A DNA stretch of 64,000 nucleotides, from assembly GCA_000934665.2 (NCBI GenBank), contig JYFJ02000077.1, positions 1 through 64,000 of the forward strand, written 5' to 3'. Shown here one piece after another: positions 23,101 to 62,741 of the stretch. The stretch is from Catajapyx aquilonaris. Lineage: Eukaryota. The notes below the pieces were generated by a model, which saw nothing but the letters and a program-made list of their open reading frames with translations, was not told where the DNA came from and searched no databases. Position numbers and translations under genes: made by a program. Every line of letters starts with the position of its first letter. The stretch's first letter is position 1.

Positions 23101-26100
23101 TATTGTACCAATGTTATTTTCTGCCAACTGTTGAAAGCAGTCTTAATGCACCGAGGTGTCGCCAAGTTTAGAGATGTTATTGTTTTCAATTGTACAGTTC
23201 CCTTGAGAACTGAAGCGTATTGTGCGTCAATCAAAAAGGTGTCCTACATGCGCCGCGTTTTAAATGACGGTATGTTTGAACGTACAGCACTTCAATATTT
23301 TGATGACGTACACAATGCAGTTCAAGGTTAATGAAGTGTTTGTTTAAAGAGATACGTGTCGGATCAACATTATTCATAATGCTATTACAACCAGTCCATT
23401 GTCGCGATATGATTATTGTTTCCTATATTGACCACACTGGCAGCGTATATATGAAGCTACATTTCGTTCGAGGATAAAATAGATGCATACAGTGTCAAAA
23501 ACTGACAATGCGCGCACCAACCATGACTATGCAGGAGATACCTTTCTATTGAAAAACTAATATCCGGCTTCCCTTTGCCAATGAGGCTGAGAGGATTCAT
23601 CATTTTACAGAGGAAGTGCAATGACATGATTTAATTTAAGGTTCTAACCAAGGCCTTTGCCATAATACAGTTCGCAGAATTCCTCCAATATTTCTTCCTA
23701 ATTCAAGGCACTTATTATCTTTTCAGGGCCTTCGAATCGCTGTTCTGATCGGATCGTTTGGAACCTGTCTGGGATCGTGGATAAAGGTATTCTCCGTGGG
23801 CCCTGACCTCTTTTACGTCACCTTTGCCGGACAAACGATAGTGGCCGTCTCCCAAGTGTTCATCCTGGGAATACCCCCTCGTTTGGCTGCAGTCTGGTTT
23901 GGCCCAGGTCAAGTGTCGTCTGCCTGTGCCATTGGAGTTTTCGGAAACCAGGTAAACACACGTGGGGATGATTCAGTTGTTTATCTCTGATCCTTGGAAC
24001 ATACCGGAGCCTTTGTTGATCAACTGATATAAGCGTCCTTATTATTTCAAGGACCTACACCTGAATATGTAGTTCAGGGTGCAAAGTTCAAACTGCTAAC
24101 TACCACTTTATCCGCCTAATCTGACAAGTGTCATATAGAAATCGAAGTACAGTTTACATCACGGGGAAGTGGTAAGAATTACGCAACTGCGGAGAGTAGG
24201 GCGTGTGTAAGATGCTAATGGAATAAATTGAACCCTTGAATACCGGGAGGATGTGACTGACAAGTAATTTCCTGTGCGTCCATTAGAACTGATTTGGGAC
24301 GTCGGGCAATTATTTGCGACACCACCACTTGACATTTGACTGATTCTCTGTCTGCAGCTGGGAATTGCTATAGGATGCTACTTGCCAACTATTCTCGTCA
24401 ATAACCACGAGAATCTAAGCGACATTGGCAGCGACCTCAGCATCATGTTTTACGGAGTAGCAGCTGTCACAACCGTTATTTTCATTCTCATAATTTTTGG
24501 TGAGTAAAACTTCACTGTGCACTGTTTGTCACAAAGAAATTTCAACCAAAATTATCCTGGATGTATGCAACTATCAGCACTCGATCATATTTTCTCTCAG
24601 CGGTTTCTACACTGTAGAGTGCTGATGGTTGCATAGCGTCAGGATAGATTTTGGCGAATTTTTCTTTTGACAGGTAGTATACTACATGATCAACATTTAT
24701 AATTATGTAGGTTAATGAAGTTGTTTTTCTAAAATTACTAGCAGTGAACTTATATTTTTTCAGTGTTCAAAGATTCTCCTCCTGTGCCCCCGAGTCTGGC
24801 CCGAGCCGCAGTTCTTTCTGCATTAGAACCTGAAAGCTACTTGAACTCAATTCGGAAATTAGTTTGCTACGTTCCATATGGTCTACTTCTCACTACTTAC
24901 GGCATGAATGCTGGAGTCTTTTATGCTGTGTCTACTCTTCTCAACCAGGTTGTGCTGCCTCATTTCCCTGTAAGTCAATAGGAATTGCGAAATCTTCATG
25001 GAGTTTCTCATCTGATGTTCTATTGCACGTGAATAACTCTTTGGTTTTAGGGACATGATGCCGACATTGGAAGAATAGGACTGTGCATGGTTTTGAGTGG
25101 AATGGCCGGTTCCGTTGTTGCTGGGCTGTGGTTGGACAAGACCCACATGTTTAAGTAAGTAGTGATAACTATATTATATAAAATAAATACAACCTGTGAA
25201 TTGAAATATAGAAGCGAATGTCACAGTGATTTTTGTACAGCAGTAGTTGTGACTATCTTTAAAATGCCTCGTTATCTTTGTTTAACACCATGAAGTACCG
25301 GTACTCACCTTTAGAATGTATATTATCTGGGTTTATGAATTTGGCTGCATTTCAATGACAACTACGTTTGCAATATTTTTGACCTTTGCTTGATAATTTC
25401 TACTGGTGTAGAATAGCTATTGTTTTGTAATGATATCGTAATGTAGCCTATACAGTATGCTGCAATACTGTACGCGTTTTTCAATGCATTTGACGTGAAA
25501 TACCCGCATCATTACGCATTAACGATATTAACGCTGTCTCGTCAGATTGTAATGCAGTACGTACCATTGCACTAGTGCAGTTTTGCTGGATGATCTGCAA
25601 ATTCCTTCACACTATGCACATTAAGTGGTTATGCAATTAATAAATATTTTAAACAATGAATTTAATAAAAAGTTTGCATAGCAATCAGTTGCAAGAACCC
25701 AGCCTTGCAAGTGACGGCCATTCATATTCTTGAATTATGTATACGCCATAAACTATATTGCAGTACATCGCAGCTTGATGGAGTTACCACATTGTCTCAT
25801 GGCACTGTATTTATCTCAGGTCAACTACAGTTGGGATCTACTGCTTCTCCTTCTTGGGAATGTTGGCCTACACATTCAGCGTGTCATACGGCGGCATCGA
25901 GCTGGTCTACTTCATGGCTATTCTTCTTGGGTACGTGTGAATGACGTGCAGGCAAATTGATATGCAAACTGCGCGTCACAAATTAATGAGCCTAGCAATA
26001 TAATTACTGATGCATTCATTACCACTAATTGATCGCAGGTTCTTCATGACCGGCTATCTACCGGTCGGGTTTGAATACGCAGCTGAAATTACGTACCCAG

Positions 26101-26354
26101 AGCCCGAGGGTACTTCTTCGGGCCTTCTGAACGCTTCAGCTCAAGTCTTTGGCATCTTGCTGACAATGGGCACTGGATGGCTGCTGAGCACTTTTAACGA
26201 CATTACTGCCAACCTGACTTTGGCTAGCGTTCTGCTGGCTGGGTCTCTTGTCACTCTTCTCATCAAGACAGAGCTAAAGAGACAAAAGGCACAAACCCAA
26301 GGGACCACACCTGAGGATGAAGCTCAGGCCAAAGTAATGGTACCCAAGGTTTGA
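20128..26354 (+). CDS. FLVCR: FLVCR-family (SLC49) MFS transporter, paralog A (canonical choline/ethanolamine transporter-like). Exons 20128-20457, 23727-23951, 24358-24499, 24764-24969, 25051-25154, 25820-25930, 26039-26354
   Basis: Family motifs [58 protein letters not shown] and [39 protein letters not shown] introns keep the frame. Confidence 0.93.
21154..22998 (-). CDS. Intronless divergent ionotropic receptor (IR, variant iGluR chemoreceptor family), nested antisense in an FLVCR-A intron
   Basis: 614-aa ORF with a signal peptide, LAQKLNFT and LDFTQPY S1 motifs, KPYTLLVW at the M1 entry, RLFFASW...YSSKL pore-lining helix, IDSLNEL at the S2 start and [11 protein letters not shown]...VFVLE as the last TM. 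This is the typical IR architecture. Confidence 0.88.
   Translation of the reverse strand: MAIKTVPSFLCLILPALVYSQIFLRPVDQPNFLTFIRNVTDTFSRNCTLLFITDSRFEPSIYFWSGLLINPIQVLRVSGKNGFSLSFPVAQASHVCRVNFVFCDVDTLRPVVKRLREYYLGRISRQFYVFITTGDVQQLLGHRSVKKFRFKLGLGDRAYSWCPYCNEGNGTAVPIPSHLPYLFPPWPVNFHLRPVYIRNPVDLHSTLAQKLNFTPVIIPIYPLNDTVEPLMTMNHQIQISKLDFTQPYVIASAKFAVAAPEGRFSWTVVLKPYTLLVWFLLIFLLAAASVLVWIHQRRSDKIYRASYVTVLSQYLLPYMFTQSTNLPQHADHGIPRLFFASWFIFCLVSSTMYSSKLTQVMIVPDTSGIDSLNELINLGYDFGVEKVEHKIFSQLLERSPFPQYSAMSTTLRLNPDLVSCLARALTTPNYACMSIDERLMYYSYLNFTDWRGRSKHQLVGSDLPPLYLAISMNRDDLHFEEVHQFVLNYVAFGFNQKEDEACFEDALSIGVRASMKNVTDEELQKGLHVRGAIRYLNQLEGPFILLVMGFMLATVVFVLEVIANWHKPLSYQPVCWVRSTFNRKGLTGTVLQGIDSGNERQLDSYKSNYRTIVN
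23032..23038 (-). promoter_or_regulatory. TATA box of the nested IR gene
   Basis: Minus strand reads GGTATATAAGGAGC ~35 bp upstream of the ATG at 22998. Confidence 0.55.
24527..24672. repeat. Long imperfect inverted repeat (fold-back element) in an FLVCR-A intron
   Basis: TGTCACAAAGAAATTTCAACCAAAATTATCCTGGATGTATGCAACTATCAGCACTC pairs with GAGTGCTGATGGTTGCATAGCGTCAGGATAGATTTTGGCGAATTTTTCTTTTGACA. Confidence 0.8.
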
Positions 26355-31943: not shown

Positions 31944-34618
31944 ATGTCCACTGCTCTGCACAATGGTATGGCAATGAATAGCAATGAGAAATCTGCACAA
32001 AACGACATCAACATCGTGTAATGACCTGTACGCTACATTTATGATCATATTCCAGGTGGCTCATTAGCTGAAGCAAATGGAGCCAAGGCGGTTTCAAACT
32101 CTCAAGCGTGCTCTCAAGTCTCAATCAATTCCTGCAGTGCCCAGGATGCGACTGAATTCAAGGTGTACAAAAGGAGGTGGGTTATGTTGGCCCTGTTTTG
32201 CATGACATCAGTGGCGAATGCCTTTCATTGGGTACAATATGCCATCATCGTGGGAGTCATTACAAAGTATTATAACGTGTCACCTTTCACTGTCGATTGG
32301 CTCTCCATGATTTACATGCTGACATACATTGTCTTCCTCATCCCAGGAGAAATGCTGCAGAAAAAGGTGCGAAAGCGTAATTTTTTAAAGCTGACTTTTT
32401 GACATTCGAATTTTTAAATTTCAGGGATTGAGACTGATTGTACTTTTGGCCAGTATTGGAACCACTCTAGGCGCATGGATCAAAGTGGGTTCGTTGGCGA
32501 CGGACCGGTTTTATGTCACGTTCATTGGACAGTCAGTGATTGCTGTGTCGCAGATATTCATTTTGGGGATTCCTCCGCGACTGGCAGCAGTGTGGTTTGG
32601 TCCTGATCAAATCTCAACAGCGTGTTCAATCGGTGTTTTTGGAAATCAGGTAAAAAAATTACACACACTGATTGCATTATCGGCTATTGTGATATGAGCA
32701 CCAATTTCAAACATTTAAATAAATTATGCTTAAGTATTAGTTCGTATACGGTGGACCAAGTAAGGAATACGTAATATATAACGAGTTACGCTTTTAACCC
32801 CAAACACCTAATGTTTTCAAAACATTTTTTTACCCGTGGCGATTTCCATGAAGAAGTAAGTGCTCAAGGACTGCGGCCGTCCACTTGTTTGTCATATGAT
32901 AAAATTATCGGTGCGTAATGATGTCATTCACGGTCACCCACCTCCTATGTAGCATTTGAATCCGTCACAGACATGACCATGGATATGCCAGTAAACATTG
33001 TGCTTAGAATAGGACCCTGACCAGCCAGTGCAATGATAAAAACTTGAAATAATTACCAGTGTGCAAAAAAGTGCCAATGTTTAGTAAGGAGTGCTCACGT
33101 CCTATGCAACGTATTACAGGAAGTACAGTATGTAGGCTTTCCTCATTTATTAAAAATTTTCAATCTGCAAAAGGTATACTCAAACAGCTCTAAAATCATT
33201 GTCTTTTTTACAGTTTGGAATCGCAGCAGGATTCCTGATCCCACCTTTGATAGTGGCAGACGACACCAGCACACCTGATATTGAAAACGGGCTGTCCATT
33301 ATGTTTTATTCCGTTGCTGGTTTCAACACTTTCCTGTCACTGCTGGTGATATGTTTCTTCCGAAATGAACCACCGACGCCTCCAAGTCCAGCCAGAGCTG
33401 CGGCCATTGAAGAAAATGTTCCTATCAAGCAGTCTCTCCTTAACCTCGCCACAAACAGATCCTATGTCATTTTACTCATCACCTATGGCCTCAACGTGGG
33501 CGTCTTTTATGCTGTGTCAACTCTTCTGAGTCAGCTTGTCCATCCACACTTTCCAGTAGGTTAAGTTCGTAATGTTGCAGTGTGCTAATCACAGCTTTAC
33601 TCAACTCGCGATCCACCATTGATTCAAGAGGTATTAATCACAGTCACAAAAATTATTGCTGGTCGATAAAAAATAATGTTATCATTCCAATATGAACAAA
33701 TGGTATGATACAATATTACCGGCAGATAGACCAGTGATTGGAAAAAGTTGAGAATAGTTGCTTTGCTTCATATGTCTAACACTTTGTTATTCAATTTTTC
33801 CAGCACAATGACAAAGATATTGGAGTTATCGGCTTGTGTATAGTTTTATGTGGAATGGTCGGATCAGTAGTGTGTGGTGTTTGGCTAGACAAGACACGCA
33901 AATATAGGTAAGTGGGAGTCAAAATTATGTCTCTTTGAAATAGATAATACTTTACACAATACAGAAAATTCACATCACACCTCTACGGATTCACTGTGTA
34001 GCATACAGTACATTATTTATGAAACACATGCAGCACAGATTTGCTTATTTAGCTAATGGAATGCTAATTCCAGCAATGTTGTGGTAAACCAATTTAAATA
34101 ATGAATCATATTAATATTACAGGCAAACCATTTTGGCTGTGTACATATTGTCATTCCTGGGAATGATTGCATTCGCTTTAACTCTCCTAGTTCCGCACAT
34201 TGCCGTGGTGTACGTAACAGCCTCTCTATTAGGGTAAGTTTGTCTTCATTTCTTGACATAACTTTCCAATCCTACGTACAATTTCTCTCATACAATTACG
34301 GTAACAATTTCCAGATTTTTCATGACTGGTTACCTTCCGCTGGGCTTTGAATTTGCCTCGGAAATAACCTACCCGGAACCTGAAAGCACATCGTCTGGAC
34401 TTCTCAACGTGTCAGCGAACCTGTTCGGCATAATATTTACCACCGCCGGAGGTCAAATTCTGGAACACTTTGGTGACCTGGCAACCAACATGGCTTTGTC
34501 TGGCTCCCTGTTTGTGGGATCTGTCTTGACAGCCTTTATCAAAGGTGACCTGAGGAGACAAGAGGCGCAGAGAGGTGTCACTAATGCACCTTCAGTTCAA
34601 GTTCTGGCTACTCCTTAG
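31944..34618 (+). CDS. FLVCR: FLVCR-family transporter, paralog B. Exons 31944-31965 (tentative), 32056-32366, 32425-32649, 33214-33555, 33804-33907, 34123-34233, 34315-34618
   Basis: [50 protein letters not shown] and [29 protein letters not shown], with an intact spliced frame. Confidence 0.9.
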
Positions 34619-36387
34619 TGCAGTTGTCTTTTATTACCAATTATGATCATTTTATCATCGAAATTGTCTTAACCACGCCCCATATGTATTTAATAGTTCC
34701 TGTAAAAATATTCTGAGAATTAGTTTGTGATATAAAGCTATGTAAGATATCTAGCAGTAACTATGACAGCTACCTTTTTGGTATAACATTTGTGAAGTGA
34801 AAGAGTTTTGTACTGCATGTTACTATGAGATTGTACAGGGTGTACATGAAGAACGCGACGAGATTTAAATATCATTTTGCGGAGATTTATTGCTAGGCCA
34901 AAATTTAAGCAATATGTCTCACATTCATTTAAGTCAAGTAAAATATTTTGTGATTTTGAACCTCGTCCAGGCTTCCACAATGTAAAAAAAAAGCATGTAC
35001 TGTACACTGACTAAGCAAACATTCAAATCTATTCGCGTTTCTTTATGGGCACTCTATTTTTTGTGCAGAAGTTACGTGGTTGTTAAATTGTGTATACACT
35101 TAAACAATACAGGTATCTCATAATGAGAAGTTATAGGTCTAATGATATAATATTTATAATTATTTTATTGGCAATATTGGCCTGTTTCAAAGTTTTTATT
35201 CTAAGATCATTAAAACCACAATAGTCCACAATGTCGAATTCGTTACCAAATTACAATAAGTATTCAAATATTCACTGCCCCGAATAATTATTTCAAAGGT
35301 CAATTGTGCACTGAGAACATTTTGTAATATTTTCATAATACTGTAGGCATTGTGCATGGATAGGCTCTGTCAGCTTCCCCAGGTCAAGAAGTTCAGTTAG
35401 CCTATTACACTGATCACTTCAGCAGTTACAGTACATGTATCCTACTAAAAGAACGGCAATAATAATTACAAGTGAATGATATTCTGATTGTTGTTTCCAA
35501 CGGGTTTTTATTCTCTTTCAAACTGATTGCTGGGTAAAACAATCAGTAACCTTTACCATATAGGCCTACTCATCTCTTGAACTGTGAACTTGGGCAATGA
35601 ACCACTATGTGTGGCACGTCGATATTGATATTAGAATCTACAGTTCGTCTGTAGTTATCGCTATTGGCAAGCTTCCTTTTGATATCCAATATGATGAATG
35701 ATCCCTGTGGAAATGTTATTGACCTCGATTGGCTGGGATTAGCCAGCCCTGTCTGTGCAGGCTTTTAGATTCACATCACAAGAAGACGTGCATACGTAAT
35801 ATCTCTCGAAAGTGAGTAGCAAGCACGTAATACCTTCGACCTCAAATATTGGTAGCCTGTGGATTTAAAATACGCCATTCTTTTGCCCTGAAGGAAGGTG
35901 GCATGTGTAATACGGGAAGGGAATGATTTATTCTGCATGTACTCCTGCTCCGAAAGCATGAAGCACAGCAGGACCACAGCGACACTTGTGACGACTACCA
36001 AAACAGCACAAAACTTTTTGTCAAGTGCATTAAGCGTTATACTCGTATTAATGACGACAAATTGCTCACGGTCAGTGTCTCTTTAATTGGCTCGATACAA
36101 CCCTTTATTGTTTTGTACGACGCTTGCTGCGATTAACCACTCTACAATTTGAATAACGCAATAAGCGTTTAGGTATATATGTTATCACGTGATCTGTATT
36201 ACCTGATAATTGATTGCCGATACTGAGATTGTGTTTTACCAATATCAGCTAAGATTGTTTTCATGGATGACCTGTCCCCTCATGAGAGGAGAGTTCTCAA
36301 GTCTTGGGACGTGCCATATCATCACCAGTTCACCGTTATAAGTGACTTAAATAACCGCAAATCTCACATTGCCTTGGAGTATTCAAG

Positions 36388-36988
36388 ATGACTGTGAAAG
36401 GTAGGCCAATTTATAACCCCTGTGACCCTTGGTAATGCGAAATCTCGTGCAAGTATTTTTCTGTCACATTTAGGGTGTCGTATTTAACAGCATACAATGT
36501 TACCCATCTCAACCAGTCAAGATTTTCGACGTTTCTGTCATTAGAATTATGCCGTGTCGGTAATTATTCTAATTAAGCAAGCATTTCGTAGGGCAGTAGG
36601 AAACAATGAATGTCCATATATAAACTCGCATGTGAATAAGGTGCACTATAATAATTATGCGGGGAGGAGGAGTGGTGCTGCGGTAACGTATGCGCCCACG
36701 GATGTTAAGGTCCCGGGTTCGACCCCAACCCAGGGACACCCCCTTCATCTCGTGCAGAGTTCAGGGTCACATCTGGCTTCGTCTCGGGTGGTATTTCCTA
36801 CAGACTAAACCACCCGGGGGAGTTCACTAAAAATGGCCACGTTTAAGACATTGCACTGCACCTTGCACATCCCCTCCTGTAATCCTGCCCGTGGGCCCGG
36901 GCGCTTCAATAATTAGGTTCCAAATATGTACATCGTACAAATAAAGGTCCGTGCTACATGCCGAGAAGGCCAAGCACTACCCGGATAT

Positions 36989-37063
<75 letters not shown>

Positions 37064-40000
37064 TTGATGTGATATGCTGTAAGTAAGTACGAAGCATATT
37101 TTCGGTATCAGTAATATTTCACAATAAATTATTATGCAAAGATAAGGTAATACAGTATAGTAAAACTGGAAAATAACTATAATGCAATTGATACCGGTAC
37201 ATTAATTATTACAATAAACGAAGTAGGTATTTAGGTATTTTAAAGGGCGACACGGTGGCCGAGTGGTTAGCGCCGCAGCCTTCCACCTCTAAGGTCCCGA
37301 GTTCGATCCCCGGGTCGGACGGAGGATACTTATGTGGATAGAGTTTCGATGGGTTCTCTCCGTGTTCGCGTGGGTTTTCTCGGGGTTCTCCCGTTTCCTC
37401 CCACTATCAAAATCCATCACATTACAGGCAAATGATTAAAGTCGGGTATTCAAAAGATGATCCCCTAAGAGGCCCAAGGGGCATATCACGGGGTATCCAT
37501 TATTAATGTATTTAGGTATTTTACGTATGTTGTATGTTGTTTATGAGGCATTTTTTTCATTATTTTGCGACAGTAGACAATAACTTACCTGTTCACAGGG
37601 GACCACTGCATGACAACTAACAAGAACCACCACCAGCAGCAGATAAAAAGAGCTCACAACTTCTACGAGCGACTTTAGTCTAATTTCGTAATTATGAATA
37701 TGTGCTTCTTAATTATGCCGCTACACAGGTTCGCGTATTAATAAATAACAGTCTACACCGGACCTCCCCTTTCGACCAATGCATACTATACCGACAGGCA
37801 GCTAAATTAGTAACGTTTTGGAGTTGACAGTACACTTATCCAAGGATTTAACAAGGTGATAGCATGAAAACTACTCTACCTATCACAGAAGTGCGCTTAG
37901 CAATGTAAACGGAATCACGTGTTAAAGTCACGAATAAACAAGATTGTTGTACTTCAATATCGGTGTAATCGCGAGCAATATCAAGTAAGTGTTGCAGAAG
38001 CTGACAGAGAAATAAGGGGAATGGAGGTAAAAAGAGGCAGAGGAAATATGCGAAAGTGCACAGACAAAAATGGAAAGGAAGAGAATGTAGGAATATTTGA
38101 ATGGGACTCTGCAGCAGGTCTGTATCAGAAAAGTAATTATCCTCCTGAGACCCCTGGTACAGTATACTGTACCTTTGTTTTTTCCAGCGCCTTCTGACTA
38201 ACTCAAACGCGTAAAAAAACAAAAACAAAGGTACAGTATACTGTACTCCGGGTCTCAGGAGGTTATAGAACTTTACAGACATAAGGCATTCCACGATTTC
38301 CATGCATTAATCGGTTGATGCAGGCGTGACAGAAAAATACTAAAAGTAATTACTGCAGTGAAAGTATCTGAATTGGTGTCTCTATGCCACATACACTCAC
38401 CAAAGTTTCTCAATATTTCAGAAGTCACAGATGTCACCAGCATCAGTTCCACGACACCTTCCCCCAATTTGTCCATTGATTCTGATAGCCATGAAAGTCC
38501 AGTGGAATACAAAGTGTACAAGAGGCGATGGTTAATGCTTTTCTTATTTTCGGTTACGTCTGGAGCTAATGCATTTCCAGGGATAGCATTCTCAATTGTT
38601 GTTGACACTGTCACAGAGTTTTACGATGTCTCACATTTGTCCGTGGACTGGCTCTCAATGATTTACATGCTGGTATACATACTGTTCCTAGTTCCTGGAG
38701 AACTGCTTCAGAAAAAGGTATGTTGGCATCGTGGTTCATCACATTATAACAGAAGCAAATTTCGAATTTTACTCTATACATCCTATTCTTGCCAAACGGG
38801 TCTTAGAAGCGTGTATATACCGCATGATAATGTGCTCTTTTATTCTAGGGACTCAGGCTTATTGTGCTTTTAGCAAGTTTAGGCACAACTGCAGGTGCAT
38901 GGATCAGAATTGGTTCGTTGGCACCTAACAGGTTTTATGTCAACTTTATTGGCCAGAGCTTCATTGCTCTGTCACAAATATTTGTTTTGGCCATACCCCC
39001 TCGCCTGGCTGCCGTTTGGTTTGGCCCAAAGCAAGTGTCTACAGCTTGTTCAATAGGTGTCTTCGGTAACCAGGTAGACTCTGAGACATTTTTTTATTGC
39101 TGCAGATTGTGGAACTTTCTCCTCACTCGAGGTAATTGTTTTTCTAGCTTGGAGTGGCCGTTGCATTCCTGATTCCGCCTCTGATAGTGCCAAGCGACAC
39201 CCCACCATCCGAGGTTCAAACTAAGCTGTCTATTCTCCTATATTCATTCGCCGTATTCAATACCATACTCTCTCTTCTGGTGATATTTTGTTTCCAAAAT
39301 GAGCCACCCACACCCCCGAGCCAGGCCAGGGCTGCAGCCATGGAAGAAGATGCCATTTCACTCAAGCAATCAATCATTAACTTATTCAAAAACCGCTCTT
39401 ATGTTCTTTTATTTTTCACGTACGGAGTGAACGCAGGAATTTTCTACTCAATTTCGACTCTTCTGGGACAGCTCATTCTTCCTCATTTTCCGGTAAGATG
39501 TGACTTATGCAACTACCACTAACGTCCGAACCATCAGAGGCTTCAGATATAGTAGACTACTTGTAGTTACTCTAAACTTATTGTTAGTAATGATGGATTC
39601 TGACTTATTCTGGTTTTGTGGAATTAATACATAAATTAAATTAATACCGATTATAATAGTTCTGCTAACGGTGGACCATTAGTTCATTTCATAAAGGAGG
39701 TAAATTTATTGTTACAGCATAATGATCGTGACGCAGGTATAATAGGACTTCTCATGGTTTTATTCGGAATGGCTGGTTCGGTCCTCTGTGGTATTTGGCT
39801 CGATAGGACCCGTAAATACAAGTAAGTACACAATATTTATAATGGTAAAGTCGGTCAATTTTTCTCAATGTCAATTTCGAGTCACGGGAGACATAATATA
39901 TGAGACGGCAGGTGGCCCTTGCATGTTACACACTGTAATGCAGCCAATTTTTTTGATGAAAATCTGCTTGAGTGCTGGCGCCACCTAGTACCGCCGAGTT

Positions 40001-40549
40001 TATTTGGTGTTTAAAGTAATTCGAGAATCAACATTTACTTTTCAGGTTAACCATGCTGATCGTTTACATATTTTCATTTCTGGGTATGATTGCTTTTGCA
40101 CTCACACTATTTATTCCGCACATTTCTGTGGTTTACGTAACGGCCTGCATACTTGGGTACGTGCTAAAGTACTAGTATACACCACATTTTGCCGGTGACG
40201 CCCACACATTAAAGGCAGCTAATGTATATTTCTTGTTTGCAGATTTTTTATGACTGGTTACTTTCCACTGGCTATGGAACTCGCCTCCGAAATCACGTAC
40301 CCTGAACCAGAGAGCACGTCCTCTGGACTTCTAAACGTGTGCTCCAACTTCTGCGGAATTGTATTTACCTTTATTGCTAGTCAACTGCTAGCGCACTTGC
40401 CCAAGCACACCGGAGACCTCGCTGTCAACATGTCCTTTGCTGGTGCGCTCTTCCTGGGAGTTGTTCTGAGTGCCTTCATTAAGAGTGATCTGAAAAGACA
40501 AAATATGGAGGAATGTAGTCCTAATCAGCCCAAATCTATTCAAAATTAA
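36388..40549 (+). CDS. FLVCR: FLVCR-family transporter, paralog C. Exons 36388-36400 (tentative), 38422-38717, 38849-39073, 39148-39492, 39718-39821, 40046-40156, 40243-40549
   Basis: [44 protein letters not shown] and [22 protein letters not shown]. The first exon ATG ACT GTG AAA G|GTAGGC is phase-compatible with the acceptor at 38421 and conserved in D. An alternative start exon is 38048-38132. Confidence 0.88.
36660..37063 (+). mobile_element. tRNA-derived SINE with (TAA)n/(TTA)n tail
   Basis: A-box-like TGGTGCTGCGG and B-box GGTTCGACCCC, followed by a simple-repeat tail. It is absent from the duplicate unit, which reads ATAATTATG|TTGATGTGATATG at ~42532-42553. Confidence 0.8.
37243..37507 (+). 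mobile_element. tRNA-derived SINE with V-domain-like core and 16-bp TSD
   Basis: A box TGGCCGAGTGG, B box GAGTTCGATCC and core GTTCTCTCCGTGTTCGCGTGGGTTTTCTCGGGGTTCTCCCGTTTCCTCCCAC. The TSD GTATTTAGGTATTTTA lies at 37227-37242 and 37508-37523, and the empty site is in the duplicate at ~42700. Confidence 0.9.
38141..38262. mobile_element. 122-bp MITE, piggyBac-like ends with TTAT TSD
   Basis: TTAT|CCTCCTGAGACCC..GTACAGTATACTGTACCTTTGTTTTT...AAAAACAAAGGTACAGTATACTGTAC..GGGTCTCAGGAGG|TTAT. Absent at the equivalent position of the duplicate (~43035). Confidence 0.8.
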
Positions 40550-41955
40550 ATTATACTTCAATATTTCTGCAGATGTTTCTGTGCCCAAATTGACGAGCCG
40601 AGGAGTGGGAACATGGGAGAGTTGATGGAATAATAACTCCTGGCGATGTATATATAAAAAAAGGTCGGGGGCATACAAAAATGTAAAGAAAGCCCGATTC
40701 TGAACTGATGGAGTAGTTCAAATTCGGCCCAGAAGGGATTTATCCCATCAACTTAGACAGAAAAACAAGTTGCATGTGTAGAATCAGTGGCACTTGCAGC
40801 TCGTTACCACAATGGAAGTCGAATTCGTTACTAGATTACGATAAGTATTCAAATATTCACTGCCCCGAATAATTTCAAAGGTTAATAATTGTGCACTGAG
40901 CATCACATTTGTGTTATTTCTTCATAATACTGTAGGCCTTTTACTGTTGTGCATGGCTGGGCCCTGTCCGCTTCCCCAGGTCAAGAAGTGCAGTTAGCCT
41001 ATTAGACTGATCACTTCAGCAGTTACAGTACATGGATCATATTAAAAGAATGGCAATAATAATAACAAGTGAATCATGTCCTGATTGTTGTTTCCAATGG
41101 GTTTTTATTCTCTTTCAAACTGGTTGCTGGGTAAAACAATCAGTAACCTTTACCATAGGCCTACTCATCTAGTTTGAACTGTGAGCTTGGGCAATGAACC
41201 ACTATGTGTGGCACGTCGATATTTACATAAGAACTGCCTACAGACCTACAGTTCGTCTGTATAGTTATCGCTATTGGCAAGCTTCCTTTTGATATCCAAT
41301 ATGATGTCATTGACCTCGATTGGCTGGGATTAGCCAGCTCTGTCTGTGCAGGCTTTCAGATGCACATCACAAGAAGAGAAGTAATATCTGCAAGCACGTA
41401 ATACCTGCGACCTCAAATATTTGTAGCCCATGTGCATTTAAAATACGCCATTCTTTCGCCCTGAAGGAAGGTGGCATGTGTACGACGGGAAGGGAATGAT
41501 TTATTCTGCATGTATCTGCTCCGAAAGCACAAAGCACAGCAGGACCACAGCGACACTTGTGACAACTACCAAAACTGCATCAAACATTTTGTCAGGTGCA
41601 TCAAGCGGTATACAGTATATACTCGTATTAATGAGTTCTTCGGTTTCTCTTTAAAGTTATTGGCTCGATACGACCCTTTATTTTTTTGTACGACGCTAGC
41701 TGCGATTAATCTACTCTACCATTTGAATACCGCAATAACCGTTTAGGTATGTTATCACGCGATCAATATTACTTGATAATTGTTGATACTGAGATTGTAT
41801 TTTACCAATATCAGCTAAGATTGTTTTCATGGATGACCTGTCCCCTCATGAGAGAAGAGTTCTCATGTCTTGCGACGTGCCATTTCATCACCATCAGTTC
41901 ACCGATGTAAGTGACCTAAACAACCGCAAATCTCACATTGCCTTCAGAATTCAAG

Positions 41956-44900
41956 ATGGCTGCGAAAGGTAAGCCCCTTTATAACCCCTGAGACGCTTGG
42001 TAATGCAAAATCTCGTGCAAGGTATTTTTCTGTCATGTTTATAGCAATGGGTGTATACATTTAGGGTGTCTCGTATTTAACAGCATTAAATGTTACCCAT
42101 TTCGACCAGTCAATATTTTCAACTTTTCTGTCATTAGAACTATATGCCGTGTCGCAGTGGCGGATCCAGCACAAGTTTCCGGGGGGGGGTTCTTGGCTTC
42201 AGGGATATTACAGTACCGGTACTGTATCTCATATGGTTTTTTTTTACTTAGCTTAAATACACCAAAATTCTCTCGCAGGCTAGCACAGACAGTGATTTAC
42301 TCATGGGCACCATGCCACATGTCCCCAGTCGAGTGAATGGAGCATTACATTACATGCAAAACACTTTCCCGACAATTACCTTTGCTTTCCCCGGTTCCCA
42401 TTTTGCCGATTTTTTGGTTTTCTCGCCCCCCCCNCCGGTTCCGCCACTGAAGTGTCGGCATGCATTTCGTATAGGGCAGTAGGAAACAATGAATGTCCAT
42501 GTAAACTAGCGTGTGAATAAGGTGCACTATAATAATTATGTTGATGTGATATGCTGTCTGACGAGTAAGTACGAAGCATATTTTTGGTGCCAGTAATAAT
42601 AAGTGACGATAGAGTATTATCCCAAGATAAGGTAATATAGTCAAACCGGAAAATAACTATAATGCAATGTTGATGATACATTAATTACAATAGACGAAGC
42701 AGGTATTTTACGTATGTTGGATGCTGTATCGAATGTTTATCAGGCTTTTTTTTTTCTTCTTCTGCGACAGTAGCCAATAACTTACCAGTTCACCTGGGTA
42801 TAGCAATGTAAACCGAATCACGTGTTAAAGTCACGAATAAACAAGATTGTTGCACTTCAATATCGGTGTAATCGCTAGCATTATCAAGTAAGTGTTGTAG
42901 AAGGTGAAAGAGAAATAAGGGGAATGGAGGCCTCAGAGGAAATATGCGAAAGTGCACAGACGAAAATGTAAAGGACGAGAATGTAGGAATATTGGAATGG
43001 GACTCTGCAGCAGGCCCGTATCAGAAAAGTAATCATCAAACTTTATCGACATAAATAAGGCATTCCAAGAATTACATGCATTAATACGTTGATGCAAACG
43101 TGACAAGAAAATACTAAAAATAATTACTGCAGTGAAAGTGTCAGAATTTTAGTGTCTCTGTGCCATATACACTCACCAGCGTTTCTTAATATTTCAGAAG
43201 TCACAGATGTCACCAGCATCAGTTCCACGACACCTTCGCCCAATTTGTCCACTGATTCTGATAGCCATGAAAGTCCAGTGGAATACAAAGTGTACAAGAG
43301 GCGATGGTTAATGCTTTTCCTATTCTCGGTTACGTCTGCAGCTAATGCAATTCCAGGGATAACATTCTCAATTGTTGTTGACACTGTCACAGAGTTTTAC
43401 GATGTCTCACCTTTGTCCGTGGACTGGCTCTCTATGATTTACATGCTGGTATACATACTGTTCCTAGTTCCTGGAGAACTGCTTCAGAAAAAGGTATGTT
43501 CACATCGTGGCACGTCACATAATAACAGAAGCACTATTTCGCATTTTACTCTGCAGCCCATTCTTGCAAAAACAAACTTTCCTGCACTATGATTTTACTC
43601 CGGGGGAGTTTACAATGTGATAAATCATTTTAAGCTGTATACCACCCTGCCTATTCGCTTGTCCTGGCACCATGTGATTTCTACCTCTTCCCTAAAATGA
43701 AATTTGGGTAGAAAATGAGGCATTTTGACTCCACTAGAGAGATCTAAGCAAAATCCCAGCAGGTGTTGAACACACTACTGTTCGCCAATTTTTGGGGGGT
43801 GCTTCCAAAAATGGGAAATTCGTTGGAATCGTTGTATACGTGCCCAAAGTTTGAAGGTGGCAGTAGAAATTAGGACTTACAGTAAATATTAATGTTTTTA
43901 TGAACAAATTCTCGGAAATTTTTGGTAGCACCCCCCCCCCTCCCCGCCACCTGTGCGTAATTTTGGTCCATCTCTATACCACACAAGTGACATCGATAGA
44001 GCTTCAAAACACAGTAAAGTGCATACAGTATATGTAACTGTTTTCGTTTTCAACATGGGTCGAAAATGGGGCCTGGGAGGGGTATCGTTCCTCTTTTGTT
44101 TCTCTCCCCTTCTCGTGATTTTTGCGTCATCTGCATACCCACACAAATGTATACATAGACGGAGCTTCAAAACTAGGTAAAAGTCATCATTGGACCCTCT
44201 CCAGTTTTCGAATAAAACAGACAAGAAGTTTTAACCCTTTTTGCAGGGGGTCCTATTATACTGTTCAACCCCTGTATGTGCTCTTTTATTCTAGGGACTC
44301 AGGCTTATTGTGCTTCTAGCAAGTTTAGGCACAACTATAGGTGCCTGGATCAGAATAGGTTCGTTGGCACCTAACAGGTTTTATGTCAACTTTATTGGCC
44401 AGAGCTTTATTGCTCTGGCATCAATCTTTGTTTTGGCCATACCCCCTCGCCTGGCTGCCGTTTGGTTTGGCCCAAAGCAAGTGTCTACAGCATGTTCAAT
44501 AGGCGTCTTCGGTAACCAGGTAGACACTGAGACATTTCTTATTGCTGCAGATTGTGGAACTTTCTACTGACTCGAGATAATTGTTTTTCTAGCTTGGAGT
44601 GGCCGTTGCATTCCTGATTCCGCCTCTGATAGTGCCAAGCGACACCCCGCCATCCAAGGTTCAAACTAAGCTGTCTATTCTCCTATACTCATTCGCCATA
44701 TTCAGTACCATATTCACTCTTCTGGTGATATTTTGTTTCCAAAATGAGCCACCTACACCCCCCAGCCAGGCCAGGGCTGCAGCCATGGAAGAAGATGCCA
44801 TTTCACTCAAGCAATCAATCATTAACTTATTCAAAAATCGTTCCTATGTTCTTTTGTTTTTCGCGTACGGAGTGAACGCAGGAATTTTCTACTCACTTAC

Positions 44901-45975
44901 GACTCTTCTGGGACAGTTAATTCTTCCTCATTTTCCGGTAAGATGCGACGTATGCAACTATCACCAATGTCCTCTTGAGATATACTGTCTTGTATAGTTA
45001 TCCGAAACTTACGAATAATGGATTCTGACGTTTTGTGAAATTATTACAAAAATTAAATTAATAACATACTCTTAAAATCGTTCTGATGAAGGTAGATCAT
45101 TCGTTCATTTCATAAATGATGTGAATTTACTGTTGCAGCATAATGATCGTGACGCAGGTATAATAGGACTCATCATGGTTTTATTCGGAATGGCTGGTTC
45201 GGTCCTCTGTGGTATTTGGCTCGATAGGACCCGCAAATACAAGTAAGTACACAATATTCATAATAATGGTAAAGTCAGCATTTTTCTCAATGTCAATTTC
45301 GAGTCGCGAAAGACAAATGCGACGGCAGGTGGCTCTTGCATGTTACACACTGTAATGCAGCCTATTTTTTGAAGAAAACCTGCTTGAGTGCTGGCGCCAC
45401 CTAGTACTGTCGAGTTCATTTGATTCTTTAAAAAAGTAATTTAAGAACTGATCAACATTTACTTTTCAGGTTAACCATGCTGATCGTTTACATATTTTCA
45501 TTTCTGGGGACGATTGCTTTTGGACTCACACTATTTATTCCGCACATTTCTGTGGTTTACGTAACGTCCTGCATACTTGGGTACGTGCTAAAGTACTAGT
45601 ATACACCACATTTTGCCGGTGACTCCCACATATATTAAAGGCAGCTAATGTATATTTCTTGCTTTCAGATTTTTTATGACTGGTTACTTTCCACTGGCTA
45701 TGGAACTCTCCTCCGAAATCACGTACCCTGAACCAGAGAGCACGTCCTCTGGCCTGATAAACGTGTGCTCAAACTTCCTCGGACTAGTGTTTACCTTTAT
45801 TGCCAGCCAACTGCTCGCGCACTTGCCCAAGCACACTGGAGACCTCGCCGTCAACATGTTCTTTGCTGGTGCGCTCTTCCTGGGAGTTGTTCTGAGTGTC
45901 TTCATTAAGAGTGATCTGAAAAGACAAAATATGGAGGAATGTAGTCCTAATCAGCCCAAATCTATTCAAAATTAG
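41956..45975 (+). CDS. FLVCR: FLVCR-family transporter, paralog D (recent duplicate of C). Exons 41956-41968 (tentative), 43198-43493, 44295-44519, 44593-44937, 45139-45242, 45470-45580, 45669-45975
   Basis: Same exon lengths as C and an intact frame. The first exon is ATG GCT GCG AAA G|GTAAGC, downstream of an Inr-like TCAGTT near 41894. Confidence 0.88.
42155..42449. mobile_element. hAT-like MITE containing an assembly N at 42434
   Basis: TIRs CAGTGGCGGA...TCCGCCACTG with poly-G/poly-C subtermini, flanked by CCGTGTCG and AAGTGTCG (6/8). Absent from unit 1 (~36557). Confidence 0.75.
43570..44272. other. ~700-bp sequence unique to the D intron relative to C, probably a transposon remnant
   Basis: The equivalent intron is 131 bp in C (38718-38848) and 801 bp in D (43494-44294). 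The intron ends align but the middle does not. Confidence 0.55.
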
Positions 45976-48900
45976 GTTATTATTCAATATTTATGCAATT
46001 AGTTGTTTCTCTGCCCAAATTGACTATCGGAAGATGGGGAAGTTGGGTCTGGAGTTCAAATTCGGTCCTGTCCTCCCTCTCTGATCGTCAACTTGGTCAG
46101 AATAACAAGGTGTGTATATGAATCAGTGTGGCACTTGCCTCTCGTGTTGGCCAATCTTTTTTTTTTAATTATTATGCATGAGGGAGTGTTGAGCGTCAAT
46201 ACTGCAGGTGCTAATCATGACTGCGTCACTTGAACTGCTTTGTGCAGGTTATCACTCTATGGTAATGACACCTTACTCAGTACTGTCGATAAATGTCCGC
46301 CCGTGACTGTCACGAACATGGGCTGATCACCATCTTCATTCACGGGCTCTCGGAAGAGCCTTGAGGGTGACTGCGAGAGGGTTAATATTGTGACGTGTTA
46401 TCCTTTCTTCTTCGAAAACATCACTATTCATTGGGTCATAATTTGAACTTCAGAATCAGAAAATGGCTGTACCCAATTAGTGACATCATCAGTTAAGAAA
46501 ATCACGCGTAAATTCTGACGTAAAATTAATTCTCACCTAGATTTCTAGCATTAAATTAATTTTATAGCGCAAGATTTTTTTTTCATCTGACAATAATACA
46601 GTTGTTACCAATTCCTTGGCACGGCACACTGACTGACACTTTAGAGCATGTTTATGTGCATAAGAATGCCAAGTACGTAATACGTCGTAGTTCACCGATC
46701 TTCATGGCGTTGTTAAGCAGGATAAGCATCGTTTTGCGTGCAGTACTCTCTTCTGAATGGTACGAAAATCATGTGCGACATGAAAGAAGCTTTGAGTTCA
46801 AGGTAGTTAGCGTACGTCAGTGGCATAGTTGTGGGAGTCATCCTGGCAAAAGAACGCGACGTGTGTTTTCATGTGGAACGTAATGCGACATGCAGCCAAA
46901 CAGCGAGTCTCATTATTCTGAAAAATATGTAAGAGTAATAAAAGGGTGTACCCTTCCGTAAGAGGAATATATTGTTCTTCGGCTTGCACATTTGAATTTT
47001 TGATTCTCATGTGGCCAACATTTCCTCACAGGTATGGTTAGTGATGTTTCCGTACTGGGACAAGGTCGACCTTTCGTCCTTTTCTATTCAAAACTAATGG
47101 GATGCCATAAGCAAAGAGGAAAGGTGTAGTCCCAGGCACTTGACGATTAACGAGTCGGTAGAGCGTGTATCCTAAAAGTGTCGCAACTACACATCAAGTG
47201 CAGACAAGCTAAGTGTAAGTCTCGCAATCTACAGTAGAAATTTACAGTGCCACTTAAACTTGGAAATTACCAGAAAATGTTTTACTGGCAAATTACTGTA
47301 TTTACAGTCCAGATTATGCAAATGGCAAGAACATTGTGTAATAAAAATTAGCTGAAAAATTCGCGTGTCTTTTAAATCATTGTCCCATTAATTCTCTTTG
47401 AAATCTAACAGGATTGCAATTTTTTACACTGTGACATTTTCCTTAGAATAGAACGTTATACTGTTCCAGGAAGACAGCTAACACGTATTAGCTTCAGGCC
47501 CATGCATTACTGTATATTATGTAAGGCAAATATAAACGTGGCACAAGGTTCTATCATAACTATATATTGGTGTTTCCGTATGTTAATGTGTTCAAAATAT
47601 CCGAAAGGCTTATCACAACTGCGCACTTAACGTTTTTGTATACGCACAAAGTCAAGGCCCACGCATAACATTTGAAAATAAATTACAAGGTTTGCTTGTG
47701 ACAGGTTATTTATTGGTGCAATACGGTATAATCGTGCTGTGCCCCAAGCTGTCACTCCACCCATCTGCCGCATCCTTCTGGTCCAATTTAAATATTGATG
47801 AAGGTTTTTTGGATGTAAGATGTGGGAAGAACTTTATAGTCCCTGAAACAAGCACTTACACTTATTACATGAAAAGCGCGTAGAATATTATGTCACTGGT
47901 TGTAATATTGCGTAAAGGGCTCGAAAGCATAATATAAATAGAGTAAAGGCAAGTGTCTTGTTTTACTAAGAAGATTGGCCATATCTGCCTGGACCAATAG
48001 TAAAATAGTCTAAAATAGTCGGAAAATGTGCAACAAAAGCAATAATTATTACCTAACTACTAATATTACTTTAAAATAATTTGAAACGCAGTTGACCTAC
48101 TGTCTCATCTAACTGCGACACACATTGCAGATGCAGTCTGAAGCTGAGGACAAAAGGCTTTCTGTTGCATTGTACCCAGACGAGGTGAGTAAGATCATAA
48201 TGATAGTGCAAAAATGTAGAGGAAAAAATGCAACGGAAGCGGCATGAAGCCCATGAAAGCCTAGCGTGTTTCAAAGACGACACCGATTTAAATCTCAAAT
48301 TTCACGCCTTCCACTTGACCAAGGCCAAGATAAAGGAGCATGACCTTTTTGGATTCAGAAGGACACTCCATTTTTGAAAATTTTGTTCTTTCTCCCAGCA
48401 CCTCCCTGGGGAAAATCATGAACTGTTTACTGCAGGGTACGTGTCAGTGTAAACGACTTTATGGCAACGCAGGCCGTATACTTGACGATAGGTGACCGCC
48501 CCTTATTTCTATTCTTCCTCGTCAAGGTTCCTGTTAAGAATGCCATTATCGTTATAATTACGCAAGGGGAAAGAACTGGTCACGTGCTGATGAGCAGGTA
48601 CGTTGCCGCTTTAAAATAAATGGAATAGCTTCAAGCACTTAACGCTGCAAGTGACATTGGGGGACCAAAATAATATACCAAAGTACGAAGAGTGACAATG
48701 TTGAGGATGCTAATGGCTTGCAGTGCTCTTTCAGCCTACCTCTATTGTGCTTGCTATACTGTCAGGCATTGAAAATAATGAAGTATTACGTGACAAGAAG
48801 CATCTTCAATGAACGACTCATAATCTGTTAGCAATTCATTCAATGTCACATAAGACCCGTTGTATAAATATGAGTTAGCGGAGTAGTGAACTAGGGAAAC

Positions 48901-62700: not shown

Positions 62701-62741
62701 AGGCCGCCGAGGCTGAGAAAGGCAAAGAGGAGAAGGTCTAA
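56730..62741 (+). CDS. FLVCR: FLVCR-family transporter, paralog E (most divergent in C-terminal half). Exons 56730(start uncertain)-57290, 58423-58647, 59093-59237, 59607-59916, 60481-60591, 62438-62741
   Basis: [48 protein letters not shown] and [22 protein letters not shown], with a long low-complexity N-terminus and an intact spliced frame. Confidence 0.9.

What the first reader, a model, noticed from the sequence alone, without database searches (positions are those of the whole stretch)
36388..45975. C versus D amino-acid differences cluster in cavity-lining helices
The C-terminal tail is identical and the loops are nearly so, yet changes cluster at TM1 (SGANAFPGIAF vs [11 protein letters not shown]), TM4 (LSQIF vs LASIF), TM7 (FTYG..YSIST vs FAYG..YSLTT), TM10 (ELASE vs ELSSE) and TM11 (LLNVCSNFCGI vs [11 protein letters not shown]). 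In MFS folds TM1, 4, 5, 7, 10 and 11 line the central cavity. Inference: ongoing positive selection or neofunctionalisation after a recent duplication. Some changes also occur in TM6 and TM12, so this needs a statistical test.
Basis: partly seen in the sequence, partly recalled or inferred. Interest (0 to 1): 0.7.

Follow-up and report, generated by a model that had tools for sequence, protein, structure and literature searches.

The report
Lopsided divergence of twin transporter genes
Two recently duplicated, intact arthropod genes for a choline-transporter-like protein differ all over their membrane helices rather than mainly at the substrate cavity; one copy carries nearly all the changes, and both had already lost the tryptophan that choline transport needs, so they probably carry something else.

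Summary
C and D are real tandem FLVCR/SLC49 paralogs: 466 codons each, 28 amino-acid and 32 silent differences, dN/dS 0.31. The listed differences exist and the loops are conserved. The cavity claim fails. The named helices hold 13/157 changes against 12/151 in the other helices (p=0.54). TM6 has the most (5), TM5 has none. Published pocket residues differ at 2 of 24 (p about 0.5). A branch-site hint (p=0.07) vanishes once double-nucleotide changes are allowed.

What is real: all 25 core changes lie in helices, and 16 of 17 polarisable changes are on D. They are conservative and include Gln214→Ser, a ligand residue invariant in 86 homologs. Both copies lack Trp125 (Gly), which human FLVCR1 needs for transport. 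It is kept in 26 of 28 covered paralogs of a roughly 29-gene expansion whose pockets are otherwise hypervariable.

Best reading (0.55): rocker-switch carriers of a non-choline substrate, with C conserved and D retuned under partly relaxed selection. The scan had already noted the expansion on other DNA of this genome.

The parts
36388..40549 (+). Gene C: FLVCR/SLC49-like MFS transporter, 466 aa. Exons 36388-36400, 38422-38717, 38849-39073, 39148-39492, 39718-39821, 40046-40156, 40243-40549.
   Evidence: Open frame with GT-AG introns. Four exons each hit only FLVCR1/FLVCR2 structures. A GT..AG joint across intron 4 and an intron-5-type joint appear in run X5. The 13-nt first exon is inferred; no joint covers it.
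41956..45975 (+). Gene D: tandem copy of C, 466 aa, 94% identical. Exons 41956-41968, 43198-43493, 44295-44519, 44593-44937, 45139-45242, 45470-45580, 45669-45975.
   Evidence: Carries 16 of the 17 polarisable amino-acid changes.
35226..46047 (+). Tandem duplication: unit 1 about 35226-40617, unit 2 about 40807-46047, each including about 1.15 kb upstream of the gene
   Evidence: Self-BLAST. Non-coding divergence 63/866 upstream, 67/723 in intron 1, 51/510 in introns 2-6. A contig at 40519-40870 bridges the junction in X1, X2 and X4.
38577..38582 (+). C codons 57-58 (Pro-Gly) at the places of human FLVCR1 Gln124-Trp125: cation-pi anchor lost
   Evidence: Alignment to solved FLVCR chains; residue table
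43353..43358 (+). D codons 57-58 (Pro-Gly): the same loss of Trp125
38975..38977 (+). C codon 146, Gln = FLVCR1 Gln214 (kept)
44421..44423 (+). D codon 146, Ser: two-base change at the Gln214 position, the only direct ligand residue that differs between C and D
   Evidence: Gln in 86 of 86 full-length homologs
32056..34618 (+). Gene B (from its second exon): sister of C+D. Keeps Trp125; Gln471 position is Asn. Used as outgroup.
   Evidence: Tree support 1.0. Shares with C and D the lack of an intron that A, E and the other paralogs have.
20128..26354 (+). Gene A: the canonical copy, with all 8 direct ligand residues
56947..62741 (+). Gene E: further paralog with a differently rebuilt pocket (Tyr349 position Asn, Gln471 position Tyr)

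Best explanation
C and D are a young, genuine tandem pair (about 10% silent divergence) in an FLVCR/SLC49 sub-lineage that had already rebuilt its pocket before the duplication. In both, the Trp125 position is Gly, Gln124 is Pro, mouse-FLVCR2 Phe446 is Met and Gln471 is Asn (SHOWN by alignment).

They most likely still work as 12-helix rocker-switch facilitated carriers. The intracellular gate residues and five of the eight ligand residues are kept in both (INFERRED from FLVCR structures). The substrate is probably not choline or ethanolamine. A bulkier or less cationic small organic molecule, filling the space left by the indole ring, is the most likely cargo (INFERRED).

After the duplication C changed very little, while D took nearly all amino-acid changes (SHOWN). 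These are conservative swaps spread over all helices, not focused on the cavity (SHOWN). One hits a ligand residue (Gln214 to Ser) and one the pocket rim (Ser to Thr in TM7). This is asymmetric divergence under partly relaxed but continuing purifying selection. D probably has a shifted affinity or selectivity, perhaps with a few selected sites that are too few to detect (INFERRED).
For: Polarity 16:1, p=0.0003. Protein tree branch lengths C 0.007, D 0.057. With equal silent branch lengths omega is 0.06 on C and 0.61 on D, p=0.0002; 0.03 and 0.51 with double-nucleotide changes. Background is 0.11. D's omega exceeds background without the clock as well, p=0.001-0.002. On D, helices evolve faster than non-helix parts: 0.85 vs 0.11 with the clock, 0.42 vs 0.05 without, p=0.0015. 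D is still constrained: 0 of 21 helix-core differences introduce D/E/K/R/P/stop where 26% of random changes would (p=0.002); mean BLOSUM 0.57 vs -0.48; 0 changes in 110-112 core loop positions. Differences hit sites conserved in ordinary homologs more often than those homologs' rates predict (7 vs 1.5, p=0.0008), but as often as the genome's own expansion predicts (5.4, p=0.28). They lean towards sites that the other 22 paralogs also diversify (p=0.007 against all core sites, 0.04 against helix sites). W125A abolishes both substrates, and Q214A cuts ethanolamine uptake by 94% while sparing choline (PMC10557757 section 7).
Against: Silent changes also lean to D (10 vs 3 of 32; 19 uninformative; p=0.09). 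Without a clock the model puts almost all change on D and cannot separate omega C from omega D (p=0.6-0.7). The clock is not rejected (p=0.11-0.12), so a plain rate difference is not excluded. Silent differences are also more frequent in helices (25 vs 7); the N:S contrast is p=0.21 over the whole protein and p=0.023 for the core only. B is nearly saturated (56/147 four-fold sites identical), and no ortholog of C/D was found (best identity 57% among the 150 listed representatives). The pocket share of C/D differences (2 of 25) is not significantly above that of ordinary homolog pairs (p=0.18). No substrate was tested, and cavity-facing status rests on literature lists and a helical wheel, not on coordinates. 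Many tests were run; p-values are nominal.
Confidence: 0.55

Rival explanations
1. One reading: positive selection aimed at cavity-facing residues is driving C and D apart.
For: Gln214 to Ser is a two-base change at a residue invariant in 86 of 86 homologs. The standard branch-site model ranks codons 146 and 402 highest (posterior 0.99 and 0.95; omega2 4.6; p=0.07). Helix omega on D is compatible with 1 although radical changes are absent. Amino-acid differences have slightly more close neighbours than chance (p=0.04). Across five young paralog pairs, pocket sites differ at 30/120 against 43/768 in 32 disjoint external pairs; as a share of helix differences p=6e-7.
Against: No enrichment by helix class, published pocket list or helical wheel. 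The branch-site gain is 0 with double-nucleotide changes allowed, the artefact described in 10.1101/165969 (listing only). Overall omega is 0.31. The named and the other helices are equal in all five pairs (148/784 vs 146/755, summed).
Confidence: 0.14
2. D is a redundant copy under relaxed selection, on its way to loss; the changes mean nothing for function.
For: Omega on D is 3-6 times background. Its changes hit conserved sites as often as a uniform draw would (7 vs 7.7). With the clock, omega D = 1 is not rejected in the standard model (p=0.07).
Against: Intact frame and splice sites. No radical helix change (p=0.002). No change in core loops, where 29% of differences fall in ordinary homolog pairs (p=0.0002). 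Omega D = 1 is rejected without the clock (p=0.02-0.035) and with double-nucleotide changes (p=0.015).
Confidence: 0.18
3. A mutational process (a higher local mutation rate, GC-biased conversion or multi-base events in D) makes the asymmetry, with no change in selection.
For: Silent third positions run weak-to-strong from C to D 18 vs 7 (p=0.04). A silent cluster lies at codons 391-425 (p=0.018 for one of three window sizes). Five codons differ at two bases. The free model places silent change on D too.
Against: Non-coding DNA shows no such bias (83 vs 68, p=0.25). The D-derived amino-acid changes show none either (7 weak-to-strong vs 6 strong-to-weak, counted by hand). Omega stays above background in every model. 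It does not explain the helix-only placement.
Confidence: 0.09
4. C and D are two alleles of one locus laid in tandem by the assembler.
For: Fragmented assembly (20,583 contigs). Another near-identical pair (b3/c1, 1 difference in 409 aa) lies on separate contigs. Contigs of X1, X2 and X4 mix C and D letters in exon 2.
Against: One contig (40519-40870) bridges the C-to-D junction in three runs of one sample. Its depth matches that of the contig running into the unique flank in two of them (34.6 vs 34.7; 29.8 vs 29.5) and is lower in the third (15 vs 21.2). An 825-base record from a second study matches C with 0 differences. Non-coding divergence is 7-10%, with many indels and different insertions. 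The mixed contigs differ between runs, as expected from bubble removal (inference).
Confidence: 0.04

Closest known systems
Human FLVCR1 (SLC49A1) and human/mouse FLVCR2 (SLC49A2), choline/ethanolamine uniporters (PDB 8ubw, 8qcs, 8qcx, 8vzn, 9qu4)
   Same: The only solved structures hit by four exons of C. Tyr153, Met154, Asn245, Phe348 and Tyr349 and the intracellular gate residues (mouse Arg223, Glu447, Glu451, Glu458) are kept in C and D.
   Different: Trp125 is Gly and Gln124 is Pro in both; Gln471 is Asn; mouse Phe446 is Met; Gln214 is Ser in D. The extracellular gate pair (mouse Asn132/Asn133, Asn355/Arg356) is replaced. The genes belong to an array and a roughly 29-copy family rather than one or two genes.
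Drosophila HisT (CG1358), SLC49 family
   Same: Shows that an arthropod FLVCR-family protein can carry another substrate: Na+-dependent histamine uptake, which human FLVCR1/2 lacked in that assay (PMC9604546, passages).
   Different: Its pocket residues were not examined here. Nothing ties C or D to histamine, and loss of the aromatic anchor argues against an amine held the same way (inference).
FLVCR-like expansion in the velvet mite Dinothrombium tinctorium
   Same: Lineage-specific multiplication of FLVCR-like genes in an arthropod (clusters of 47, 27 and 21 members; PMC6275457, passages).
   Different: Those copies are only 25-30% identical to FLVCR1/2, and the passages read give no pocket analysis. 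Here the copies are 32-61% identical to their best homolog and the pocket changes can be mapped residue by residue.
Asymmetric evolution of young tandem duplicates (general concept, recalled, no call)
   Same: One copy conserved, the other with raised dN/dS that stays below 1.
   Different: Here the faster copy changes only in helices and not in loops, which simple relaxation does not predict.

Membership tests
FLVCR/SLC49 family (by descent) | Sequence homology to FLVCR1/2 along the protein | tested here: met
   4 of 7 exons searched; each hit only FLVCR1/2 chains, E 5e-12 to 8e-25. C and D nest among arthropod FLVCRs in the tree.
FLVCR/SLC49 family (by descent) | 12-helix MFS fold | tested here: inconclusive
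   C and D were not folded. A model of homolog P0034 (pLDDT 87.5) matches FLVCR1/2 with TM-score 0.82-0.92, and all 12 helices map onto C by alignment.
FLVCR/SLC49 family (by descent) | Intracellular gate residues (mouse Arg223, Glu447, Glu458) | tested here: met
   Kept in C and D; residue roles from 10.1101/2023.10.05.561059
FLVCR1/2-type choline/ethanolamine transporter | Trp125 cation-pi anchor | tested here: not met
   Gly in C and D; W125A abolishes uptake
FLVCR1/2-type choline/ethanolamine transporter | Aromatic and polar pocket Tyr153, Met154, Asn245, Phe348, Tyr349 | tested here: met
   All five kept in both copies
FLVCR1/2-type choline/ethanolamine transporter | Gln214 and Gln471 (hydroxyl/amine contacts) | tested here: not met
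   Gln214 is kept in C and Ser in D; Gln471 is Asn in both
FLVCR1/2-type choline/ethanolamine transporter | Extracellular gate Asn-Asn pair (FLVCR2 Asn110-Asn332) | tested here: not met
   Asp66 and Gly285 in both copies; role from PMC11168923 section 6
FLVCR1/2-type choline/ethanolamine transporter | Measured choline or ethanolamine uptake | not testable with these tools
   Needs an uptake assay
HisT-type histamine transporter | Na+-dependent, histamine-specific uptake; expression in glia | not testable with these tools
   Definition from PMC9604546; no assay or tissue data here
Duplicate under positive selection at the substrate cavity | Excess of replacements at cavity-facing sites | tested here: not met
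Duplicate under positive selection at the substrate cavity | Site class with omega above 1 on the foreground branch | tested here: inconclusive
   p=0.07 in the standard model, no gain with double-nucleotide changes; 4 sequences only

The most novel reading that the evidence does not exclude
C and D are a working FLVCR sub-lineage that transports without the otherwise near-universal Trp125, that is, with a new kind of substrate. D is a fresh neofunctionalised copy, caught early, retuned by selection through one ligand residue plus helix-packing changes throughout the membrane. They are the youngest pair in a roughly 29-gene SLC49 repertoire that diversifies substrate pockets the way detoxification or receptor families do.
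Probability: 0.3. Interest if true: 0.6.

Novelty: new variant of a known kind. Interest (0 to 1): 0.36.

Why it matters
The claim as posed, cavity-focused positive selection between C and D, does not hold and should not be carried forward. The pair is still useful. It offers two natural FLVCR variants without Trp125, which mutagenesis shows to be essential in the human protein. They differ at 28 positions, of which only one is a direct ligand residue, the one that separates ethanolamine from choline transport in FLVCR1. With canonical A and intermediate B next door, the series A, B, C, D is a ready-made set for asking how SLC49 carriers change substrate. That question is open: the family has been assigned haem, choline, ethanolamine and histamine.

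Tried and rejected
Gene conversion homogenising the tail or loops: rejected. The longest identical run (81 nt) is below the null median (93), and silent divergence (0.10) matches non-coding divergence (0.07-0.10).

Sliding-window dN/dS: the only window above 1 (codons 331-390, 1.39) rests on a single silent change.

A divergence peak around selected sites: silent changes are not significantly closer to replacements than chance (p=0.10 and 0.42).

Pocket enrichment on the C+D stem: 2 of 11 changes at conserved sites are in the pocket (p=0.37); the branch-site test on the stem is null.

Orthologs for site models: none found.

Expression: no RNA holder is listed. Run X5, of unrecorded type, shows spliced joints for C and gives no D-specific cover; this blank is no evidence on D.

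Searches returned nothing and were redone; no formal one-clade test was run.

Literature: three searches for FLVCR/SLC49 expansions in arthropods gave only the mite genome paper as relevant. None of the listings describes a Trp125-less FLVCR, but the library lacks most subscription journals and I read no supplements.
Full report
WHAT IS THERE. The window holds five FLVCR/SLC49-like genes in a row on the + strand, A to E. C (36388-40549) and D (41956-45975) lie in a tandem duplication of about 5.4 kb. Each has seven exons, GT-AG introns and 466 codons without a stop. They differ at 28 codons in amino acid and 32 silently. Four exons of C searched singly hit only FLVCR1 and FLVCR2 structures. 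The best database homologs are pancrustacean, and gene A groups with insect sequences in the tree. The 13-nt first exon is inferred and carries 2 of the 28 differences.

THE PAIR IS REAL. One contig bridges the end of C and the repeated upstream DNA of D in three runs of one sample. Its depth equals that of the contig entering the unique flank in two runs and is lower in the third. A run from another study shows a GT..AG joint across intron 4 of C, a second joint of intron-5 type, and 825 bases matching C without a difference. Divergence is 0.073 upstream, 0.093 in intron 1 and 0.10 in introns 2-6. Pairwise dS is 0.102, dN 0.031 and dN/dS 0.31, bootstrap 0.18-0.52. The coding region is therefore not homogenised by conversion, and the identical tail is within chance.

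THE CLUSTERING CLAIM. Helix limits came from the predicted structure of homolog P0034, which matches solved FLVCRs, mapped onto C by alignment. Differences per helix TM1-12 are 3,1,1,2,0,5,3,1,2,2,3,2, with 3 in the N-terminus. The eight cavity helices hold 15/214 against 10/94 in the outer four (p=0.90). A list of 24 pocket positions was taken from PMC11168923, PMC10557757, 10.1101/2023.10.05.561059 and PMC12569663. It contains 2 differences, Q146S and S281T, against 1.4-1.8 expected. A list of 19 gate positions contains 0. On a helical wheel, 6/62 facing positions differ against 9/124 facing away (p=0.38). What does hold is helix versus loop: 25/308 against 3/158 (p=0.004). In the core there are 0 loop differences, whereas loops take 29% of the differences in 32 disjoint pairs of ordinary homologs (p=0.0002) and 66 of 339 in four other paralog pairs of this genome (p=0.006). 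Silent differences lean the same way, so the N:S contrast is weaker: p=0.21 overall and 0.023 in the core.

ONE COPY CHANGED. With B as outgroup (tree support 1.0), 16 differences are D-derived, 1 is C-derived and 11 cannot be polarised (p=0.0003). I wrote codon models for this (GY94-type, F3x4, with and without double-nucleotide changes). They give omega on D of 0.25-0.37 without a clock and 0.51-0.61 with equal silent branch lengths, against a background of 0.07-0.12. C has 0.03-0.06 under the clock and is unresolved without it. B is almost saturated at silent sites and silent polarity also leans to D (10:3, p=0.09), so a rate difference cannot be excluded. On D, helices evolve faster than the rest (p=0.0015). 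The changes are conservative: none of 21 helix-core differences adds a charge, proline or stop, where 26% of random changes would. The branch-site test on D gives p=0.07 and picks codons 146 and 402, both two-base differences. The gain drops to 0 when such events are allowed. Positive selection is therefore not shown, and complete relaxation does not fit either.

THE POCKET. In human FLVCR1 choline is held by Trp125 and Tyr349 and contacts Gln214 and Gln471. Tyr153, Met154 and Asn245 also line the site (PMC10557757 section 4), as does Phe348 (PMC11168923). W125A abolishes uptake of both substrates, and Q214A removes 94% of ethanolamine uptake while leaving choline unchanged. In simulations W125A lets choline escape but leaves the rocker-switch motion intact (PMC12569663 section 10). 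C and D both have Pro-Gly at 124-125, Asn at 471 and Met at mouse Phe446; D also has Ser at 214. Trp125 is present in 26 of 28 covered paralogs of this genome, in 83 of 86 full-length homologs (the 3 exceptions look misaligned or truncated) and in 146 of 149 aligned representatives out of 150. None of the three representative exceptions is Gly. Gln214 is present in 86 of 86. That set was chosen by likeness to exon 3, which inflates conservation there. It is the 86 of 125 proteins with 400-560 residues, less P0008 and P0015.

THE WIDER FAMILY. An exon-3 search of the genome found 29 matches among 30 scored candidates, a lower bound. A spliced aligner reproduced the hand models of B and C and gave 24 further copies without stops or frameshifts, with shared intron positions. 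Two are cut by contig ends, one has a poor first exon, and one is a near-duplicate of another. All copies in the tree but A form one clade (support 0.99; 27 of 29 in the tree). I then took 22 paralogs, leaving out A, B, C, D, the near-duplicate and the two partial copies. Among them, conserved pocket sites change more often than other conserved sites (6.9 vs 4.4 steps, 15 vs 114 sites, p=0.004; vs conserved helix sites p=0.015). Trp125 never changes and the gate residues stay conserved. In five young pairs, pocket sites differ at 0.25 against 0.19 for other helix sites (p=0.06), whereas ordinary homolog pairs give 0.056 against 0.154. Pocket-directed diversification is thus a property of the family in this genome. 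The C/D pair alone has too few changes to show it (p=0.18).

HOW IT MOST LIKELY WORKS. Shown: intact genes, splicing of C, retained intracellular gate and five ligand residues, loss of Trp125 before the duplication, and one-sided, conservative, helix-wide change in D including Gln214. Inferred: both are rocker-switch facilitated carriers; the Trp-to-Gly change removes the cation-pi lid and opens the site, so the cargo is probably a bulkier or less cationic small molecule rather than choline or ethanolamine; and D's shorter residue at 214 plus repacking shift affinity or selectivity. Confidence 0.55. Rivals: relaxation towards loss 0.18, cavity-focused positive selection 0.14, mutational bias 0.09, assembly artefact 0.04.

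COMPARISON AND NOVELTY. By descent these are FLVCR/SLC49 genes. They fail the residue tests for a choline/ethanolamine carrier of the FLVCR1/2 type. Substrate change in the family has a precedent in Drosophila HisT, and arthropod FLVCR-like expansions have one in a velvet mite. Three searches listed no paper on a Trp125-less FLVCR or on pocket diversification in such an expansion; the library is incomplete. The scan had already reported the ten-copy array on another contig and its rebuilt pockets. Verdict: new variant of a known kind, interest 0.36.

PAPERS SEEN. PMC11168923: passages and section 6. PMC10557757: abstract, outline, sections 4 and 7. 10.1101/2023.10.05.561059: passages. PMC12569663: abstract, sections 7, 8, 10 and 12. 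PMC9604546 and PMC6275457: passages. PMC13160678: outline only, not used. 10.1101/165969: search listing. No supplements were read; fuller lists of cavity-lining residues in them could change the pocket set. The MFS helix classes (inner, rocking, outer) and asymmetric duplicate evolution are recalled knowledge.

Noticed in passing
window 21154-23007 (-): Intronless 617-codon open frame with a weak ligand-gated ion channel match (PF00060, E 7e-7, just under the cut-off), nested on the opposite strand in intron 1 of gene A; looks like a divergent ionotropic receptor.
   Followed up: partly
G000 C29:64000-71350; C1850, C118, C1811, C7983, C9975, C10589, C120, C1090 (L001-L016): 24 more FLVCR-like copies; the array in this window continues with at least two more genes beyond base 64000. 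Many carry Asp or Glu at the Gln214 and Tyr349 positions.
   Followed up: partly
window 56947-62741 (gene E): Pocket rebuilt differently from C and D (Trp125 kept; Tyr349 position Asn, Gln471 position Tyr). It lacks an intron that the other copies have. Three external homologs also have Asn at the Tyr349 position.
   Followed up: partly
window, codons 391-425 of C and D (exon 7): Local excess of silent differences (9 in 35 codons), mostly weak-to-strong from C to D; cause unexplained.
   Followed up: partly
window 43590-44270: Repetitive insertion in intron 2 of D (contig depth 1,500-3,100 against about 30), absent from C; intron 1 also carries different insertions in the two copies.
   Followed up: no
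window 36244-36400 and 41813-41968: The stretch just upstream of the inferred start codon is well conserved between copies and holds upstream ATGs; D has a GTAAGT donor-like site there that C lacks. The true 5' structure is unverified.
   Followed up: no
run X5 on window 39823-40870: Records that retain introns 5 and 6 of C lie beside spliced ones: pre-mRNA, intron retention or DNA in the run.
   Followed up: no
L004 (C1850:13550-15800) and L014 (C10589): Copies b3 and c1 differ at 1 of 409 residues on separate contigs: a possible uncollapsed allele.
   Followed up: no
P0001, P0016, P0018 (firefly proteins): Annotated as fused, multi-copy FLVCR proteins, which suggests tandem FLVCR arrays in fireflies too.
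   Followed up: no
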